From Methanotrichaceae archaeon (GTDB taxonomy: Archaea > Halobacteriota > Methanosarcinia > Methanotrichales > Methanotrichaceae), in NCBI GenBank assembly GCA_963813075.1, contig CAWEXU010000004.1, forward strand, positions 160,001-224,000: a DNA stretch of 64,000 nucleotides, given 5' to 3'. Position 1 is the stretch's first letter. Each line of letters begins with the position of its first letter. This document shows, piece by piece, positions 6,543-51,316 of this stretch. The notes below the pieces were generated by a model. The model was not told the origin of the DNA. It searched no databases and saw only the letters and a program-made list of their open reading frames with translations. The position numbers and the translations under genes were made by a program.

Positions 6543-7100
6543 TTATCTTGCCGCTTTGGCCACGCGCTCCACGCTGTCCTTGTGGTTTATGGCGTAGCTC
6601 TTGACATCGCGGTTGGCTGCCGCGATGATCTCATCGGCTAAAGCCGCCTTTGCCGTCTTGGTTTTCTTGAATGAGGCAGCATGAGCGCCCTTGGCGATGA
6701 ACATCAGAGCGGTGTCCACCCTCCTCTGGGGCGCGGTGTCCACTGCTTTGGGCACGGTTATGCCGCCGTACTTGAGACGGACGACCTCTTCCCGCGGCCC
6801 GGCGTTGGCAATGGCCTGGCCCAGAACGGTAAGGGGGTTCTCCTTGGTCCTCTTGGCGATGATATCGAACGCCCCTTCCACTATGGCATAAGCCTTGAGC
6901 TTCTTGCCGGTGTTCTTCTCCTTGCGCATCATCTTATTGACCAGGCGCTCGACGATATGCTGCTCGGACTTCTTGAACTGCTGCTTGGCATGCTTTCCGC
7001 CGGAGTGCACGACCGCTTTTGGCGTGAGGTTCATATATCCTCTCACTCCGGGATCCAGGACCTCGGTCTCAATATTTTCCCATTTGCCGAATAACTTCAT
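6543..7100 (-). CDS. rps7: 30S ribosomal protein S7 (uS7)
   Basis: MKLFGKW...[11 protein letters not shown]...ERVAKAAR; second half of the artefactually fused ORF 6543..7535. Confidence 0.96.
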
Positions 7101-7105
7101 GTCGA

Positions 7106-7535
7106 TCACCTCACCGGCTTCTCTTTTCTGCCCCGCACAAGCTCCTGCTAGGGATACGTTATTGACAGCGATGACCTTGAATCTGACTCCAGGGATATCT
7201 CCCATGGACCGGCCCTGACGCCCACCGATGCGGTCTACCAGGACCTCATCGTGCTCATCTATGAATCCGATGGCTCCATCGCCCGGGGCAAAGGCCGTAA
7301 CCTGACGGCCGTTCTTGATCAGCTGAATGCGCACTGCCTTTCTTATGGCCGAGTTGGGCTGTTTGGCCTCAATTCCGACCTTCTCCAGGACAATACCCCT
7401 TCCCATGGGCGCTCCACCCAGGGGGTCAGCCTTCATCTTGCTCCCTGACATCCTGCGGATAAACTTGGGATGGCTCCACCTCATTGTCTTCCTATCACTC
7501 TCCAGTTTCCTGGCTGCATAGATTCCATTTCCCAT
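7106..7535 (-). CDS. rps12: 30S ribosomal protein S12 (uS12), +1 frameshift near 7149
   Basis: [11 protein letters not shown] and [10 protein letters not shown]; removing one base restores the end [16 protein letters not shown] at 7106. Confidence 0.95.
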
Positions 7536-20389: not shown

Positions 20390-20950
20390 CGATGCTTCGG
20401 AGAAATATTAGCATTATTATTCTCCAGCCGGGCCAGGCGAAACTGTGAGATTGGGCGCGGTTATGCTCATCGCCCTCGCCTTTCCGGAAGAGGCACGCCC
20501 AGCACATGTTGCCTGACTATTTGAGCTATCGAATATGTTTGATCTATTCATGCGAAACTGACTTTTTTAGTGGGCGCCGCGAGTCGGCCCTTCGGGCCTC
20601 CCGCGCTATGCTCTGGTCCCCTCAACGCCGGGGTGGCTTGGATAGAGCGATTGATTTGGCTAAGTCTGAATAAATGTGACCGGCATCCCATTGATGTGTG
20701 TCCACGGGCAGGCACACGCGCGCGCGGGCCGGTCGCTGCGGCAGGTCTGCACTGCCTCGGGAAGTGGTGCATTTGGGCCCCTCTGCAAGGATTCGAGCCA
20801 CACCCCACCGGCGCACAAAGACCTGCTGGATCTTGCCTCCTTGCAAGATGCGTCCGGGGACAGGGCCGGGATGGGATATCGGGGCGAAGCGAGAAAGGAG
20901 CCGCTGGCCAGCAAAGGGCTGCCCGGAGGCACAGGCATGTCTGGCCTACG
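20390..20950 (+). ncRNA. Candidate large structured RNA/element, copy 1 (family unknown; ends approximate)
   Basis: No credible ORF; many nested stems with G-U pairs valid on + strand; collinear homology to 48180..48570. Confidence 0.55.
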
Positions 20951-20957
20951 AATACCA

Positions 20958-20964
20958 TTAAATA
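20958..20964 (+). promoter_or_regulatory. Probable TATA box of tRNA-Leu
   Basis: TTAAATA about 33 bp upstream of the mature tRNA 5' end. Confidence 0.5.
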
Positions 20965-20996
20965 CTACTACTGCATGAGATTGGCTGCATCCTTTT

Positions 20997-21081
20997 GCGG
21001 GGATTGCCAAGCCAGGTCAAAGGCGCTGGATTCAGGGTCCAGTCACGAAGGTGTTCGTGGGTTCGAATCCCATTCCCCGCA
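20997..21081 (+). tRNA. tRNA-Leu(CAG)
   Basis: GCGGGGA/TCCCCGC acceptor, CTGGA-TTCAGGG-TCCAG anticodon arm, long variable arm, GTTCGAATCC, discriminator A. Confidence 0.96.
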
Positions 21082-43713: not shown

Positions 43714-45532
43714 ATGAATGAGGGAAGCCAGGCTGCTACTCTGATCGGCATTGTAGCCCTGATCGGCCTTGCAGGGCTCTATTTGACCGGAGGCATTCCA
43801 TTCCTGGAGGAGCCCAGCCAGCAGGAGCCCATCCCGGAGGCGAGCTTTGAGCTTGGAGACTTTTATGTAGACAGCTACCGGGCAGACCTTTACCTCAATG
43901 GCACTCTGATTGAGAATTTCAGCTATCAGATAGATGCCTCCGAAAAATACCGGATGCTCTACAGGTTCTGGAAGATGCCGGTTATCCAGGGAAGGATCGA
44001 TCTGCCCTATATTGAGTTGCTAAATGTTGTGCCCACTCCGGGCGCTGTGCCCTATGTCAGGTACAGCAATAATGCGGTCAAAGTGCTATCGGCAAATGAT
44101 AGCAACTACAGAGAGGAGATCGAGTCCCTGGCAGAGCAGAATGAGGCAGGCTCTTTCTACCCTCAGATGTTCCCCGCCGGTCGATATCAGATGGAGTATG
44201 TCTTTCTTATTCATCCCTTCCTGGAGTGCGATCAGGATTACTGTCACTGGAACCTCATGCTGGCGAATGAGCATCTGCCCTACCGGCAGCTTGCCATCCG
44301 CATTCATGATCCGGACGATCTGATTGTACAGCTATTCACCCACCCAAAGATGGAGTCTTACAAAGAGGGAGACATCTGGGTTATCACTGGAGCCAGCCCC
44401 AGGAATGGGCTGATAGAGGTTGAGATGCTCCTTTTGCCCGCTGCGAAAGAGATCATAGACGGCTTTCCCAGAGAGGTATCCAATGTCTATGAAAAGACCC
44501 ACTCCACTCAAAAGAAGGGTTATATGGGCTCAGACCTATTGCCCGTGCTTCGCTCTTTGGTGGCCGCATTCCCATTGCTGCTGATCTTTCTCTATCTGCT
44601 GTTTGGCAGAGAGAGGCGCTATACAGTGCCCGAGATCGCTCAGCACCGTCCCGGCAAAGAGAAAGCCCTGGCTGGTCAATATGGTATTCAAGGATGATCC
44701 CCATGAATTTGAGCCCGATGGATTCTATGCCACACTGCTGGATTTGCATAAGCGCAATATAATCGAGCTGGGCAGGACATCTTTCACCGAGATTCGCCTT
44801 CTTCCCGGCGATTGGAGCGATATGGACCGCTATGAGAGAAAGGTCCTTGATTTTCTGAGAGACAACTCCACAAAGGATGTTTTTTCGGCCCGCGGGCTGG
44901 AGAACAGGATCAATAATCTGACTAAGTCGCATGACTCAAGAAGGCTGGCCGAGTTGAGGGCAGACATGGAAGGGATACTCCATTATAGAGATGATGACGC
45001 CGTTCGAGAGTTCGTCGCCGGAAGGAATCTATTGGCTTTGGGCTTGAACAAGAAAAAGCTGAGTTCGCCATTCATCTGGGCGGCAATCATCCTGATTTTT
45101 GTATTGGCGCAGGATATCGTATCCAATCCAGCAGCCATAGCATTGGTAATCCTTGCCCTGCAGTCAACAGCAGTGGCATTTGCCCCGTCCACTCTGCTCG
45201 GCCAGTGGAAGAAAGACTACTACAAAGAAAAGCTGGAGTGGGATTCATTCCGGACCTTTTTGGGCGACTACGCCATGATCAGAAAGTATTCTGCAGATGA
45301 CCTTAACATGTGGAAGGAATGGCTGATCTACGGCACAGCACTTGGGGTGGGAGATACGGTGGAGAAGGCGATGATGGACCTGAATATTGCCATTCCCGAG
45401 GCGGCTGCCATACATAACATAGGGATCAGCTTTGTCGATGCCCTCACCGCCAGCATGCCAGATTCAAGCGACTCCGGTGGAGGGTTCGGCTTCGGCGGGG
45501 GAGGGGGAGGAGGCGGCGGTGGGATCCGGTAG
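43714..45532 (+). CDS. DUF2207 family membrane protein, paralog 1 (frameshift near 44635)
   Basis: Joined ORFs 43714..44697 and 44603..45532; ATLLDL, WKEWLIYGTALGV, Gly-rich tail. Confidence 0.85.
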
Positions 45533-45605
45533 TGGCCCAATTCATGGCACGGTATCCTTCCTGGATCACGGAATTCAGGCAAAGGCATCGAGGTGGTGAG
45601 GCAGG

Positions 45606-47428
45606 ATGAACGAAGGGAGCCAGGCGGCTATATTGATTGGCATTGTGGCCCTGATCGGCTTTGGCGGGCTCTATATAACCGGAGGTATTCCATTTTTGGA
45701 GGAGCCCTTCCCGGCAGGCTTTTTCCTGGGGGATGTTTACGTAGAAAGCTATCAGGCGGATCTGTACCTCAACGGTACATTGAGCGAAGAGTTCGACTAC
45801 CGGATAAAAAAATCGGGAGCCTACAGGATGCTCTACCGGAACTGGAAGATGCCCCTTTCTGCGGAGCACATGGTTTTGCCTTACATAGAGCCCCTGGAGA
45901 TCCTTCCTACTCCCGGGGCCGTCCCCTATGTCAAGGACAATACTGGAGCTGTGCAGATATTATCGCCCGCGGACAGCCGCTACAAGAGCGAGGTCGCCTC
46001 CCTGGCAGAGAGGAATGAGGCAGGAGGCTACTATCCCCAGCGATTCACTGCCGGGCAGTATCAGATGGAGTACCTTTTCCGCATTCATCCATACCTTGAG
46101 TGTGACCAGGAGTTCTGCCACTGGAACCTTATGCTGGCGGATGAGCATCTGCCCTACCGGCAAATTGAGATACGCATTCATGATCCCGACGATCTGATTG
46201 TAGAGCTCTTCACCCATCCTCAGATGAGAATGCAAAAGGAGGACAAGATGTGGGTCATCACCGGGGGCAGCCCCAAAGATGAGCTGATAGAGGTTGAGAT
46301 GCTTCTTGTGCCCGGAGCGAAGGAAGGCATTGGGGGCTTTCCCAGAGAGGTCTCCGAATGTCTATCAGAAGACCATCTCCGCCCAGGAAGGGGGCTCAAG
46401 CCTATTGCTCGTGCTGCGCTCTTTGGTGGCAGCACTGCCGTTGCTATTGATTCTCATCTACCTGTTAATTGGCCGGGAGAAGAGATTTACCGTGCCCAGG
46501 GCTCTTTCCACCCCGCCCAGCAAGAGACGTCCCTGGCAGGTTAATATGCTCTTCAAGGGGGATGCATTCGACTTCGATCCCGATGGATTCTATGCCACAT
46601 TGCTGGACCTGCATAAGCGGGATATCATCCGGATAGATACATTATCCGGGACCCAGATCATGGTTCTCTCCCCGTCCGCTACCGGATCTCGATGAGTATG
46701 AGAGGAAGGTGATCGAGTTTCTCCGGGACAACTCCCAGGGGAAAGCGTTCTCAGCTTCTGGCTTTGAGGCGAGAGTGAAATCGCTGGCCCAGTCCAACGA
46801 TACCGGCCAGCTGGCCAGGCTGCGCAGTGCCATGGATGAGATACTGCATTATGTCGATGAAGATATGGTTCGCCGTCATGCGGTGGGCAGGAGCATCAGA
46901 GCCCTGGGAATCAGGGTTCAGAGCAGGCAGCTGATCATTCCACTCATCTGGGGAGCTATTTTCATCGTCCCCTTTTTCCTGGGATCGGGCATCCTGGAAA
47001 ATCCAACTGCAATCACGGCCATGATTCTGACTTTGCAGTCGAGCCTGGCCGCATTTGCTCCCTCCACCCTCTTTGGCCGCTGGAAGGAGGATTACTATAA
47101 AGAGAAGCTGGAATGGGATTCTTTCCGGGCCTTTTTGGGAGACTTTGCCATGATCCAGCGGTATTCACCCAGTGACCTGAATATATGGAAGGAGTGGCTT
47201 ATCTACGGCACAGCTCTCGGGGTAGGGGACAAAGTGGAGAGGGCGTTGAGGGATTTGAACATCCCCATCCCCGAGGCGGTGGCCATCCATACCATTCATA
47301 CCAGCTTCGGCCATGCCTACTCCTCCAGCGTGCCCAGCTCCAGCAGCTCGGGAGGATTTGGCGGGGGAAGCGGGGGCGGATTTGGCGGTGGCGGCGGTGG
47401 GGGAGGAGGCGGAGGAGGGGCGAGGTGA
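45606..47428 (+). CDS. DUF2207 family membrane protein, paralog 2 (frameshifts near 46360 and 46685)
   Basis: Joined ORFs 45606..46544, 46294..46695, 46709..47428; collinear with paralog 1. Confidence 0.85.
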
Positions 47429-48179: not shown

Positions 48180-48570
48180 GGCAGGAGAATCTCATTGATA
48201 GATTTCCTTGGCAATGATCGCTTCAGCAGCTTTGCAGCGGGCTCCGCGCGCGAAAAGACGCGCGATACGTTCCGGGCGCCCCTCAAGGCCGGGCAGGCTT
48301 GGACAAAACAATGGAGAAAGGTTCAGCTTGAGTCCAAGTGTTGTGGAGATTACCCACAGACTACTGAACTGTTATCGAACAAGCCATACCCAATCCCTTC
48401 TGGCAGTCTTAGTCCCTGTTTTTGTGGAACCTTGCTCTCCTGTGCCCAGTGCCGGGTGAGGCCGTGGAAACGGGCATTCCTCATCTCCAGCCCTCCTGTG
48501 CCCGCTGGCGCACGCATGTGCGGGCGAAGGCGGGTGAAGGTGCAGATTATGCAACTTCATATTGCTGGAA
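48180..48570 (+). ncRNA. Candidate large structured RNA/element, copy 2 (family unknown; ends approximate)
   Basis: Multiple stems incl. CCGT-GGAA-ACGG GNRA hairpin; 23/27 identity core and collinear blocks shared with copy 1. Confidence 0.55.
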
Positions 48571-49563
48571 TTAGTCCGTAAATTCCAGTTCTTCGGCCCT
48601 GGCAAATGCTGCATCGGCCTCTGTAGTGCGACCGAGCGACTGGAGTGTGAAGGCTTTGCCGAACCAGGCGTTAGCATGTTGCGGATTGAGCTCGATGGCA
48701 TTATTGAATGCTTGCAGTGCCCCATCATAGTTACCTTGCAGGCCTAGAGCAACGCCTTTGTTGACCCAAGCATCCGCTAATTTTGGGTCGATCTCGATGG
48801 CCTTATCCAATGTCTGTAGCGCCTCATCATATTTGCCTTGTTGACCTAGAGCAATGCCTTTGTTGCTCCAGGCTGCCGCATATTTAGGATTGATTTCGAT
48901 AGCCTTATTATATAATTGGATGGCCTCATCGTAATTGCCCTCACCATTGAGAGAATTTCCTTTGTTGTACCATGCTACTGACAATTGCGGATCAATCTCG
49001 ATGGCCCTATTGTATGCCTTGATAGCCTCATCATATTTGCCTTGATCATAGAGAACCATGCCTTTGCCGTTCCAGGCATCTCCATAATTTGGATCGATCT
49101 CGATGGCCCTGTTGTATGCCTGAATGGATTCATCGAACTTACCCAGGAAATAGAGTGCATTTCCTTTATTGGACCAGGTCACTGCCGATTGAGGATCAAT
49201 CTCGATTACCTTATCGAATGTCACCAGTGCTTCATCATACTCTCCTAGTTGGCCGAGAGCAGTGCCTTTGTTATTCAATACAACTGACAATTGTGGATCG
49301 ATCTCGATGGCCCTATCGTATGCCTTGATGGCTTCATCGTATTTGCCAAGATTGGTGAGAGCAAGGCCTTTATTGTTCCAGGCTTCTACATATTGTGGAT
49401 TTAGCTCGATTGCTTCATTAAGAGCGTCGATTGATTCGTTGTACTTGTTTTCGAATAAGAGCGCATTCCCTTTCTCGAGCCAATCCTTTGCCGTCGTCTG
49501 CCCAAATGCTGGAGCACTTAGCATTGCCAAAATCATCAATATCTGAACAAGTTTTGCTTTAAT
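48571..49563 (-). CDS. Secreted tetratricopeptide repeat protein
   Basis: About 8 34-aa repeats AWxNKGxAL...YDEAI..YNRAIEIDP; signal peptide; start placed at in-frame ATT 49563 after GGAGG (ORF track starts at 49539). Confidence 0.92.
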   Translation of the reverse strand: MKAKLVQILMILAMLSAPAFGQTTAKDWLEKGNALLFENKYNESIDALNEAIELNPQYVEAWNNKGLALTNLGKYDEAIKAYDRAIEIDPQLSVVLNNKGTALGQLGEYDEALVTFDKVIEIDPQSAVTWSNKGNALYFLGKFDESIQAYNRAIEIDPNYGDAWNGKGMVLYDQGKYDEAIKAYNRAIEIDPQLSVAWYNKGNSLNGEGNYDEAIQLYNKAIEINPKYAAAWSNKGIALGQQGKYDEALQTLDKAIEIDPKLADAWVNKGVALGLQGNYDGALQAFNNAIELNPQHANAWFGKAFTLQSLGRTTEADAAFARAEELEFTD

Positions 49564-49741
49564 AGGGCCTTCCTCCGCATTCGATCATATTAACCTACTT
49601 ATAAAAATAGTTTGCGCAGCGGGAACAGCGCTGGGATGCTGCGGCGCAGGTATTCATCAGATGCTTTGATGCCATGTTTCTCTCGAAGCTCCTGGATTGG
49701 GAGACAAAGGCTATATCTCATCAATGGTAATAAATCTAGCA

Positions 49742-49999
49742 ATGTTTATAGAGTACATCAAAGCGGCAATGGATAAGGCGACTTACGAGATCATAGACGA
49801 CCCGGAGCCCTTTTATGGCGAGATCCCAGAGCTTCAGGGAGTCTGGGCCACAGGAAAGACCCTTGAGGCTTGCCGGGATGAGCTCATGAGCGCTCTTGAG
49901 GATTGGATAGCCTTTCGCCTCAGAACCGGGCGATCGATCCCTCCGATCGGTGGAGCAACAATTGTTGTCTCATCGGAGCCTGTCAGCATTGTCGAATAA
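49742..49999 (+). CDS. hicB: HicB-like antitoxin (UPF0150)
   Basis: YIKAAM..ATYE, FYGEIPELQGVWATGKTLEAC, LEDWI. Confidence 0.88.
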   Translation: MFIEYIKAAMDKATYEIIDDPEPFYGEIPELQGVWATGKTLEACRDELMSALEDWIAFRLRTGRSIPPIGGATIVVSSEPVSIVE

Positions 50000-50177: not shown

Positions 50178-50574
50178 TATCTCCGATCTTGGATAACCAT
50201 AGTCAGCGAGGCTTCAGGGCAAGAGCTGATCGAGCATAGGTGAAGCTATCGTACTGCCATAGCCCTTGAACCTGGGATATCCGGGTTTCCTCCTGCCTCG
50301 ACTCTTCGGAAGAAGGCTTGATAGGCCAAATCGAACTCTTCGACGACTTCCTGTAGAACCTGAGAATGGACTTCTGTTCAATTCGAGCTTTTCTTCTTTC
50401 CATCCTGGCAAAAGCTTCTGGTATCGTAATAGGAGCAGAAAATTGCCTTCTTGCTCGTAAGCGCTTCCTGATCGGATGGCACTTCGTCATAGGTCGATCT
50501 GCAAAGCTCCAAGGTATCAGCCATCTTGGCTTGAGATTTTGTAGGAAGATCCTATAGCGAAGCACTTTCAGCAA
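50167..50574 (-). pseudogene. tnpB: tnpB N-terminal fragment, multiply frameshifted, RuvC region missing
   Basis: Across frames: RYRI, PGWKEEK, AFFRRV, KPGYPRFKG, YDSFTY, LWLSKIGDIKI. Confidence 0.85.
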
Positions 50575-50575
50575 A

Positions 50576-50975
50576 TCACTTCACCTTTTGCATCTCTACA
50601 TATCGATTGCATTACATCCTTGGTAGCATTCCAAAGTGCCAACATAGTAAGTATGGATTTCAAAGATGGCGATTCCAAAGCTGATCTCGTAGTTCAGGAT
50701 GCGTTGTCAAAGAGCTTCTTTGCCGTAAAGCCTTTGAAGATCTGGCAATGACAACAGGAGAAATAGGTCAGCTGTCATGAAGAGGTGAACATGATCCGGC
50801 AGGATCTCTGATTGATCAATGTAATTCCCTTCCGCTTTGCTATCAATTCATGCACCAATGAAGGTCTTCGGCGATTGAACCAGTAAGAACCTTCCTTCGA
50901 TACTTTGTTGACCATACAAAGTGGTAATACACGTTATGGAGACCTCTTGCGCTTATCCAATGCTCTGCTAGTCAT
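50576..50975 (-). pseudogene. tnpA: IS200-type Y1 transposase tnpA remnant
   Basis: Across frames: YHFVWSTKYRRKVL, HUH motif PDHVHLF, FKGFTAKKLF, HPELRDQLWNRHL then in-frame stop, YYVGT, RYVEMQK. Confidence 0.87.
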
Positions 50976-51067
50976 TCTGAATTACACATATGGTTACCAT
51001 ACGTATATATACCTATCGATAGGCACGGCTGTATCCCGCCTTTGAAAAAGCTGGATTAGCATAGTCT

Positions 51068-51316
51068 CTAAACGACCTCAGCTCCGAGGGGAACAAAGGA
51101 GGCATCCTCTAGGCTCTTTGAGGCAAAGAAAAGACAAGCATAGATGTCATCCTTCGCCAGACCGGGATACTCTTCTAAAATCGCCTCCATACTGATGCCA
51201 TGAGCCAGAAGCCCCAGGATATACTCCACGGTGAGTCTTGTGCCCCTGATGACAGGTTTGCCCACCATTATCTTGGGATTTATGGTTATCCTTTCCAGCA
51301 GCTCTTCGTTGTTCAC
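51068..51316 (-). CDS. DUF433 family antitoxin-like protein
   Basis: RITINPKIMVGKPVIRGTRLTV, ILEEYPGL..DDIYACL. Confidence 0.92.
   Translation of the reverse strand: MNNEELLERITINPKIMVGKPVIRGTRLTVEYILGLLAHGISMEAILEEYPGLAKDDIYACLFFASKSLEDASFVPLGAEVV

What the first reader, a model, noticed from the sequence alone, without database searches (positions are those of the whole stretch)
48180..48570. Second, diverged copy of the structured element 28 kb away, with structure-preserving changes
Seen, collinear with copy 1: GGAGAA-led hairpin (48183-48208 vs 20399-20425); TGATCnnTTCA; AGCGGGCTCCGCG vs AGTGGGCGCCGCG (11/13); CGCG-closed hairpin with a different interior; CGCGATACGTTCCGG vs CGCGCTATGCTCTGG (11/15); core CCCCTCAAGGCCGGGCAGGCTTGGACA (48279-48305) vs CCCCTCAACGCCGGGGTGGCTTGGATA (20618-20644), 23/27; AGCCAYACCC (48382 vs 20796); TGGA..CTTGC.CTCCT; GGGCGAAG (48522 vs 20882). 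Equivalent stems survive substitution: TCCGG/CCGGG vs CTCTGG/CCGGGG around the invariant CCCCTCAA loop; GCTTGGAC/GTCCAAGT vs TTGGAT/GTCTGA; TGTGG/CCACA vs GTGACCGGC/GCCGGTCGC; AGACT/AGTCT vs GCAGGTCT/AGACCTGC, both enclosing AGCCAYACCC. Length differences are whole hairpin domains. Core substitutions are all non-synonymous in the shared frame, arguing against protein-level conservation. No terminal inverted repeats or target duplication seen. Both copies start shortly after the stop of a + strand gene. Inference: a dispersed family of large structured RNAs or non-autonomous elements; this is the best candidate for an undescribed system here.
Basis: partly seen in the sequence, partly recalled or inferred. 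Interest (0 to 1): 0.85.

Follow-up and report, generated by a model that had tools for sequence, protein, structure and literature searches.

The report
Hairpin repeat marking methanogen defence cassettes
The two stretches are not a pair of large RNAs but two of dozens of copies of a short, hairpin-forming DNA repeat found in one family of methane-making microbes, where it sits at the joints between swappable defence genes.

Summary
Only about 100 bases of the two 'copies' are homologous (window 20553-20657 and 48220-48318); the 5' and 3' parts do not beat shuffles. That core is a dispersed repeat: 54 profile hits at 24 loci in this genome, found in 51 of 58 other species of the genus and 8 of 46 other genomes of the family, and not convincingly outside it. 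Layout: T-tract, CGCG hairpin, 12-15 nt, then a 4-bp hairpin with an 8-9 nt conserved loop whose stem shows compensatory changes. Neighbouring copies face the same way (29 of 30) and bracket toxin-antitoxin, restriction and TPR genes and whole CRISPR mini-arrays. One 901-bp toxin-antitoxin module is present or absent with its switch inside the conserved block. It fails the attC, REP-tag, TIR/TSD and HDV-ribozyme tests, and no mobilising enzyme was found. Best reading: a REP/BIME-like modular repeat whose copies serve as crossover points for accessory modules. A dedicated integron-like system is not excluded (about 0.25).

The parts
48220..48318 (+). Copy 2: core repeat (T-rich tract, hairpin H1, linker, hairpin H2, GGCTTGG block)
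   Evidence: model R2 62.1 bits, E 1.8e-11 (copy 2 is in the model's training set); nhmmer E 4.6e-5
48244..48264 (+). Copy 2 hairpin H1 (CGCGCG arms, 6-nt loop)
   Evidence: sequence; paired in DNA fold on both strands
48279..48304 (+). Copy 2 hairpin H2 (stem 48279-82 with 48291-94, outer pair mismatched; loop TCAAGGCC) and conserved block
   Evidence: family covariation; column conservation
48215..48225 (+). TGATC..TTCA word of the left arm
   Evidence: a similar word lies in 51 of 166 left arms
48305..48335 (+). Right-arm subtype shared with sites in G068
   Evidence: pairwise alignment with L031; search
48571..49539 (-). TPR protein gene whose 3' end faces copy 2; start of a ~3 kb accessory island
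   Evidence: Pfam TPR; TPR genes recur beside sites
49697..49999 (+). UPF0150 (HicB-like) gene; a short HicA-like frame follows to about 50180
   Evidence: Pfam PF21748; HicA-like by eye against a cluster
50203..51060 (-). Decayed IS200/IS605 element (passenger; its ends are unrelated to the repeat)
   Evidence: Y1 fragment 50843-50938 with a stop; end sequence
51068..51316 (-). DUF433 gene, end of the island before alaS
   Evidence: Pfam
20553..20657 (+). Copy 1: core repeat; H1 20578-20605, H2 20618-20633
   Evidence: model R2 61.3 bits (in training set); nhmmer E 4e-21
20419..20432 (+). 'M' module (ATTCTCCAGCCGGG), which recurs 120-200 bp from many cores behind a TATA-like box
20943..20996 (+). 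Single-copy conserved promoter/leader of the tRNA; the fixed side of a variable array of sites
   Evidence: match in 47 of 59 genus genomes, 29 of 30 good ones
20997..21081 (+). tRNA-Leu(CAG)
   Evidence: Rfam, ARAGORN

Best explanation
A Methanotrichaceae-specific modular hairpin repeat that works like bacterial REP/BIME elements and whose same-strand copies act as crossover points for accessory modules. SHOWN: ~100-bp core, many copies, conserved H2 hairpin, singles, tandem arrays and inverted pairs, modules gained or lost between copies. INFERRED: the core is read in single-stranded form by a trans-acting enzyme not yet identified, which spreads it. Once two copies face the same way, exchange within the 25-bp conserved block, by that enzyme or by host recombination, adds or removes what lies between (toxin-antitoxin pairs, restriction genes, TPR genes, CRISPR mini-arrays). 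Copy 2 marks the left edge of a 3-kb island; copy 1 is the innermost unit of a variable array upstream of tRNA-Leu(CAG).
For: 54 hits at 24 loci, 29 of 30 neighbour pairs within 5 kb on the same strand, 2 of 54 inside a long ORF. Block positions up to 99% conserved over 136 sites while flanks fall to about 35-55%. Outer H2 pair GC 90, CG 60 of 164 sites found without a pairing requirement. In 47 picked rows, 3 of 4 H2 pairs change on both sides, one pair CG 22 / AU 13 / GC 12 with no mismatch. H1-to-H2 distance 12-15 nt in 129 of 147. Paralogous loci C12/C31 differ by 901 bp = antitoxin + PIN toxin + one extra core, with the switch in the block. Three tandem modules of site + CRISPR array, two with their own differing leaders, in G022. 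0 to 3 or more sites upstream of the same tRNA-Leu in 20 loci, 9 with and 11 without. Copy 2's site is not in the corresponding stretch of 3 of 3 relatives. Similarity is less linked across the block (r 0.20) than within arms (0.45-0.65) among 30 own-genome sites. Head-to-head and tail-to-tail pairs in other species.
Against: No mobilising enzyme found. None of 21 Y1 transposase loci carries the element by my scan, although IS200 copies lie within 150 bp of a site in two loci with ends of their own. G068 has 38 or more sites and no Y1 hit. No recurring recombinase among 858 neighbouring ORFs. No sharp ends: modules fade gradually. Switch points are not at one base: 10 of 29 shared right flanks begin within 10 nt of the block, 16 begin in H1, 3 elsewhere, and these pairs are not independent. 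The linkage drop is not seen in the 60 non-self sites, where right-arm correlations are all low. The core folds no better than shuffles. Flanking-gene orientation is only weakly biased (right neighbour opposite in 33 of 54).
Confidence: 0.5

Rival explanations
1. A dedicated cassette system: the block is the recombination site of an unknown integrase, and modules excise as circles and re-insert, as in integrons but with a non-attC site.
For: Same-strand arrays, defence cargo, the exact 901-bp indel, CRISPR-array modules, sharp switches at the block in some pairs such as L113/L125 and L114/L115, a fixed tRNA-promoter side with variable upstream units, block conserved across species.
Against: attC layout in 0 of 192 sites. 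The only tyrosine recombinase hit in this 83% complete genome is on C18, where no site was found. No resolvase here. Sites scattered over 24 loci; inverted pairs common in relatives; many switches lie off the block.
Confidence: 0.25
2. A small structured RNA or transcription element: a TATA+M promoter drives a ~200-nt transcript ending at the block, often antisense to toxin genes or CRISPR trailers, or the T-tract and hairpins end transcription.
For: TATA+M lies upstream of 34 and downstream of 44 of 194 sites. H2 covariation fits RNA as well as ssDNA. Sites precede tRNA-Leu promoters and abut CRISPR trailer repeats.
Against: Most sites lack TATA+M. Unit fold z -0.36; 5'-3' pairing no better than permuted partners (p 0.11). 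No Rfam hit. HDV-type P1 and P2 together in 1 of 140 vs 1.3 in controls. Patchy copy number from 0 to 38 or more.
Confidence: 0.17
3. A CRISPR by-product: a degenerate repeat or leader part handled by Cas1.
For: The block's last 13 bases match the end of local CRISPR repeats at 11 of 13 (post hoc, by eye; repeats). Sites abut truncated trailer repeats and lie between cas2 and the leader in some species.
Against: True leaders lack it. G005, G045 and G069 carry 9-16 pattern hits but no such repeat and no Cas4-Cas1 of this type. Subtypes in sister genera end differently.
Confidence: 0.05
4. One reading: two copies of one 400-500 nt structured RNA.
For: Two short words occur in the same order in both 3' parts; shuffle p 0.06-0.09.
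Against: Not significant; absent from the other 164 right arms examined; not seen in the orthologue; no excess folding.
Confidence: 0.03

Closest known systems
REP / BIME / REPIN repeats with RAYT (TnpA-REP)
   Same: Short intergenic hairpin repeats, lineage-specific, patchy copy number, singles, tandem arrays and inverted pairs (features as described in PMC6006769 and PMC3733652, passages read).
   Different: GT[AG]G at the hairpin foot in 3 of 193 sites; two hairpins plus a conserved loop, ~100 bp; no flanked Y1 gene; archaeal; arrays enclose defence genes.
Integron cassette arrays lacking an integrase (CALINs), including archaeal ones
   Same: Same-strand sites between short accessory genes, more alike within than between genomes (10.1101/2022.02.06.479319, passages read; the within-genome likeness here is by eye).
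   Different: No attC layout (0 of 192); dispersed over 24 loci; inverted pairs; cargo includes whole CRISPR arrays; no integrase beside arrays.
pdif / dif modules of Acinetobacter
   Same: Genus-restricted multiple sites flanking exchangeable adaptive genes (PMC6449649, abstract read).
   Different: The site is GC-rich hairpins, not an 11-6-11 Xer site (layout recalled, compared by eye); no Xer link shown.
MITEs and IS200/IS605-derived palindrome elements
   Same: Non-autonomous, multi-copy, intergenic.
   Different: No TIR or TSD; local IS200/IS605 ends are unrelated; ends are not sharp.

Membership tests
REP/REPIN (RAYT-associated) | Multi-copy intergenic hairpin, also as inverted pairs or arrays | tested here: met
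REP/REPIN (RAYT-associated) | GT[AG]G tetranucleotide at the hairpin foot | tested here: not met
   3 of 193 within 2 nt of the foot; 54 of 193 within 9 nt
REP/REPIN (RAYT-associated) | A Y1 transposase gene flanked by the repeats | tested here: not met
   0 of 21 Y1 loci; no Y1 hit in G068, 98% complete; 10 genomes plus own searched
Integron attC / CALIN | RYYYAAC...GTTRRRY with L boxes | tested here: not met
   0 of 192 windows; shuffles 0.35 (own script, no positive control)
Integron attC / CALIN | Same-strand sites between accessory genes | tested here: met
   29 of 30 pairs; cargo
Integron attC / CALIN | IntI-type tyrosine recombinase | tested here: inconclusive
   one PF00589 hit in own genome away from sites; 1 of 29 recombinase loci had a relative of the element nearby and its 4 closest homologues did not; IntI insertion not examined
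MITE | Terminal inverted repeats and target duplication | tested here: not met
   41 own sites: longest direct 5.4 vs 5.7 permuted, inverted 5.5 vs 5.5
HDV-like ribozyme | P1 and P2 around the P3/L3 hairpin | tested here: not met
   both found in 1 of 140; control 1.3. The loop likeness was recalled
Rfam RNA families | Match at gathering score | tested here: not met
   only tRNAs; sub-threshold hits look like chance
CRISPR leader or repeat | Present at leaders; co-occurs with arrays and Cas1 | tested here: not met
IS91 / rolling-circle element | Y2 transposase | tested here: inconclusive
   0 of 59 genomes, but the control genomes did not ring either
Any recombination site | Excision or integration demonstrated | not testable with these tools
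   only assembled contigs were available

The most novel reading that the evidence does not exclude
An undescribed archaeal cassette-exchange system: a hairpin site unrelated to attC, read by an unknown recombinase, that stockpiles and reshuffles toxin-antitoxin pairs, restriction genes and entire CRISPR arrays with their leaders, with arrays anchored upstream of tRNA-Leu promoters.
Probability: 0.25. Interest if true: 0.85.

Novelty: new variant of a known kind. Interest (0 to 1): 0.58.

Why it matters
These methanogens are common in digesters (the locus searched was held by 20 runs from 12 sludge, digester and bioreactor studies). A family-wide repeat that marks the joints of their defence islands gives a handle on how those islands are assembled, and would be a REP/BIME-like system in archaea. 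If a dedicated enzyme exists, it would be a new route for moving whole CRISPR arrays and possibly a new recombinase. The repeat also breaks short-read assemblies at these loci (contig ends), so defence content may be under-counted.

Tried and rejected
Expression and excision: four runs laid on a G005 array were all contigs; no joints were listed, and one contig of depth 3.8 may be another diverged copy. Core bins rose about 5.5-fold over the left flank in the DNA runs and 1.1- to 3-fold in the RNA runs; contigs cannot show strand or level, so this is no evidence either way. Reverse transcriptase: one hit below the cut-off. IS110 as the enzyme: it sits in CRISPR repeats, not in the block. Integrase 2 kb from a site in G063: it lies beyond a tRNA-Leu(TAG) and looks like a separate element. 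Short ~200-aa tyrosine recombinase beside a relative of the element in G041: four homologues lack it. Plasmids: best E 0.3. Viral contigs: 0 matches. Likeness to plasmid nick sites and IS605 ends (recalled): dropped because the matching bases vary with the H2 stem. RNAalifold on A2 found only H2. One search had mis-set columns and was redone. For A3 I used 47 rows: 46 of the 73 listed, all chosen for at least 3 of 4 stem pairs, plus copy 1; near-duplicates and two evident false hits were dropped, so one search is partly circular and one search is the unselected count. Look-ups of earlier findings gave nothing relevant.

Full report
Observation. Split into three parts, only the core (20541-20650 vs 48213-48312) beats dinucleotide shuffles (0 of 1000); the 5' parts give p 0.93 and 0.48, the 3' parts 0.086 and 0.061. 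Neither whole region folds better than shuffles by more than 1.8 sd. Rfam gives only tRNAs in the window and chance-level hits around both copies and one array.

Copy number and range. Iterated nhmmer finds 54 hits in this 2.7-Mb, 83% complete genome, at 24 loci; a covariance model finds 41. A 21-nt pattern hits 40 of 58 other genus genomes and 1 of 46 other family genomes. The structured model hits 51 of 58 and 8 of 46, saturating at 38 in five genomes. Outside the family: 0 of 76 genomes with the sequence model and two single weak hits in 146 with the structured one. An exact 24-mer gave 63 loci among 185,579 species genomes, all titled Methanothrix, Methanotrichaceae or uncultured Methanosarcinales; none in viral contigs.

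Anatomy. T-rich tract, hairpin H1 (CGCG arms, variable loop), 12-15 nt in 129 of 147 sites, hairpin H2 (4 bp, loop TCnn(T)nGCC), then NGGC and a subtype-specific tail. The outer H2 pair is GC in 90 and CG in 60 of 164 sites found by sequence alone. With sister-genus subtypes the stem takes at least seven forms; on 47 picked rows 3 of 4 pairs change on both sides and 0 of 500 shuffles reach the score (rows were selected for pairing). H1 arms barely vary, so they show no covariation. Which strand folds, and whether as DNA or RNA, is not shown. Further modules recur: a TATA-like box plus 'M' upstream of 34 and downstream of 44 of 194 sites, 245-bp non-coding tandem units, and inverted pairs with a ~100-nt spacer in other species.

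Context. Neighbouring sites share a strand in 29 of 30 pairs. Pfam shows PIN, MazE, PemK, ParE, HEPN, TumE, HicB-like, Mrr, GmrSD, type I restriction, cas1/2/4/6, csa3, csx3, Card1 and TPR genes beside them. By my hand count about 18 of the 24 own loci have such a defence gene or array within about 1.5 kb. In the window, the only toxin-antitoxin-like genes among some 58 ORFs scanned lie within 3.1 kb of copy 2. At the copy-2 position three relatives keep the upstream gene but have other DNA and no site. Upstream of tRNA-Leu(CAG), 9 of 20 loci have one to three or more sites and 11 have none, one of these on a short contig end.

tRNA-Leu link (unexplained). Sites lie 120-1300 bp upstream, same strand, of tRNA-Leu with three anticodons. 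In this genome 2 of 6 Leu calls vs 0 of 38 others have a site within 4 kb (Fisher p 0.016). In G005, G068 and G063 the tRNAs with a type-A site within 1.5 kb upstream are two each, all Leu, read from coordinates; a tRNA-Pro in G068 has one at 1.8 kb. At locus level p is about 0.003, post hoc.

Exchange at the core. Paralogous loci C12 and C31 differ by 901 bp: an antitoxin and PIN toxin plus one core; the single core in C12 has the H1 type of one C31 core and the right flank of the other. In G022 three tandem modules each carry site, promoter-like arm, truncated trailer repeat and CRISPR array, two with differing leaders. Of 127 pairs sharing a flank, 16 share only the right, 7 only the left and 4 both at my thresholds. 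Of 29 long shared right flanks 10 begin within 10 nt of the block and 16 in H1; of 11 shared left flanks 6 end at +25 to +32. Host recombination in a conserved repeat would give the same picture, so this does not prove a site-specific enzyme. What argues for a sequence-specific factor is that the block stays near-invariant across species whose flanks no longer align (inference).

Search for the enzyme. Nothing found: Y1, Y2 (uninformative control), tyrosine recombinases, resolvase, reverse transcriptase, neighbour clustering, Cas1 co-occurrence. Only candidate families were tested; no whole-proteome profile was possible.

Comparison with what is known. It works most like REP/BIME repeats and, in arrays, like integrase-less cassette clusters or dif modules, but fails a defining test for each. 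Seven literature searches returned no description of this family; the library holds only open papers. Seen: passages of 10.1101/2022.02.06.479319 (no 'Methanosarcin' in the main text; the listing shows no 'Methanothrix'), PMC3733652 (no 'Methano'), PMC13343696 (no Methanothrix), PMC6006769, and the abstract and outline of PMC6449649. No supplements were read; their genome tables, or IS databases, could list these repeats. The HDV loop, Xer site and nick-site likenesses are recalled.

Verdict. New variant of a known kind; interest 0.58; a dedicated cassette system remains open at about 0.25.

Noticed in passing
G000 C10 ~95.0-96.5k, C7 ~0.5-2.0k, C7 ~108.4-109.9k (L004, L020, L019): Three near-identical IS110-family transposase copies (495 aa) sit in CRISPR arrays, inserted in the first bases of the repeat with short sub-terminal inverted repeats; a short remnant sits at the same place in G061 (L035). 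A CRISPR-repeat-targeting IS110.
   Followed up: partly
window 20943-20996: The ~50 bases upstream of tRNA-Leu(CAG) are 81-96% identical in the genus genomes that match there, unusually conserved for a tRNA promoter/leader.
   Followed up: no
G005 C1 1484252 and 1487601; G067 C36 65365 and 70008: The 5' end of a tRNA-Leu is duplicated around tyrosine-integrase pieces, suggesting elements that integrate at the 5' part of tRNA-Leu.
   Followed up: no
G000 C17:1428, C7:108170, C10:96629, C4:142643, C7:34727: Trailer CRISPR repeats beside the M module lack about the 8 bases that would form the crRNA 5' handle.
   Followed up: partly
L004:8721-9920, L008:18-1019, L097:2622-3479: A family-A DNA polymerase gene, unusual in archaea (recalled), recurs just upstream of sites; 7 members in the neighbour clustering.
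   Followed up: no
L166:1426-2028, L165, L167, L170: A ~200-aa tyrosine recombinase family that seems to lack the N-terminal binding domain.
   Followed up: partly
G000 C19:33.3-33.7k, C18:3.8-4.1k; L083:5075-5398: A second, unrelated ~330-bp repeat; in G005 it replaces H1 of a site while the block and right arm remain.
   Followed up: no
window 43714-47428: Tandem duplicated DUF2207 gene, both copies split into separate N- and C-terminal frames.
   Followed up: no
window 6543-7535: Ribosomal proteins S12 and S7 are in one 330-aa frame; fusion or sequence error.
   Followed up: no
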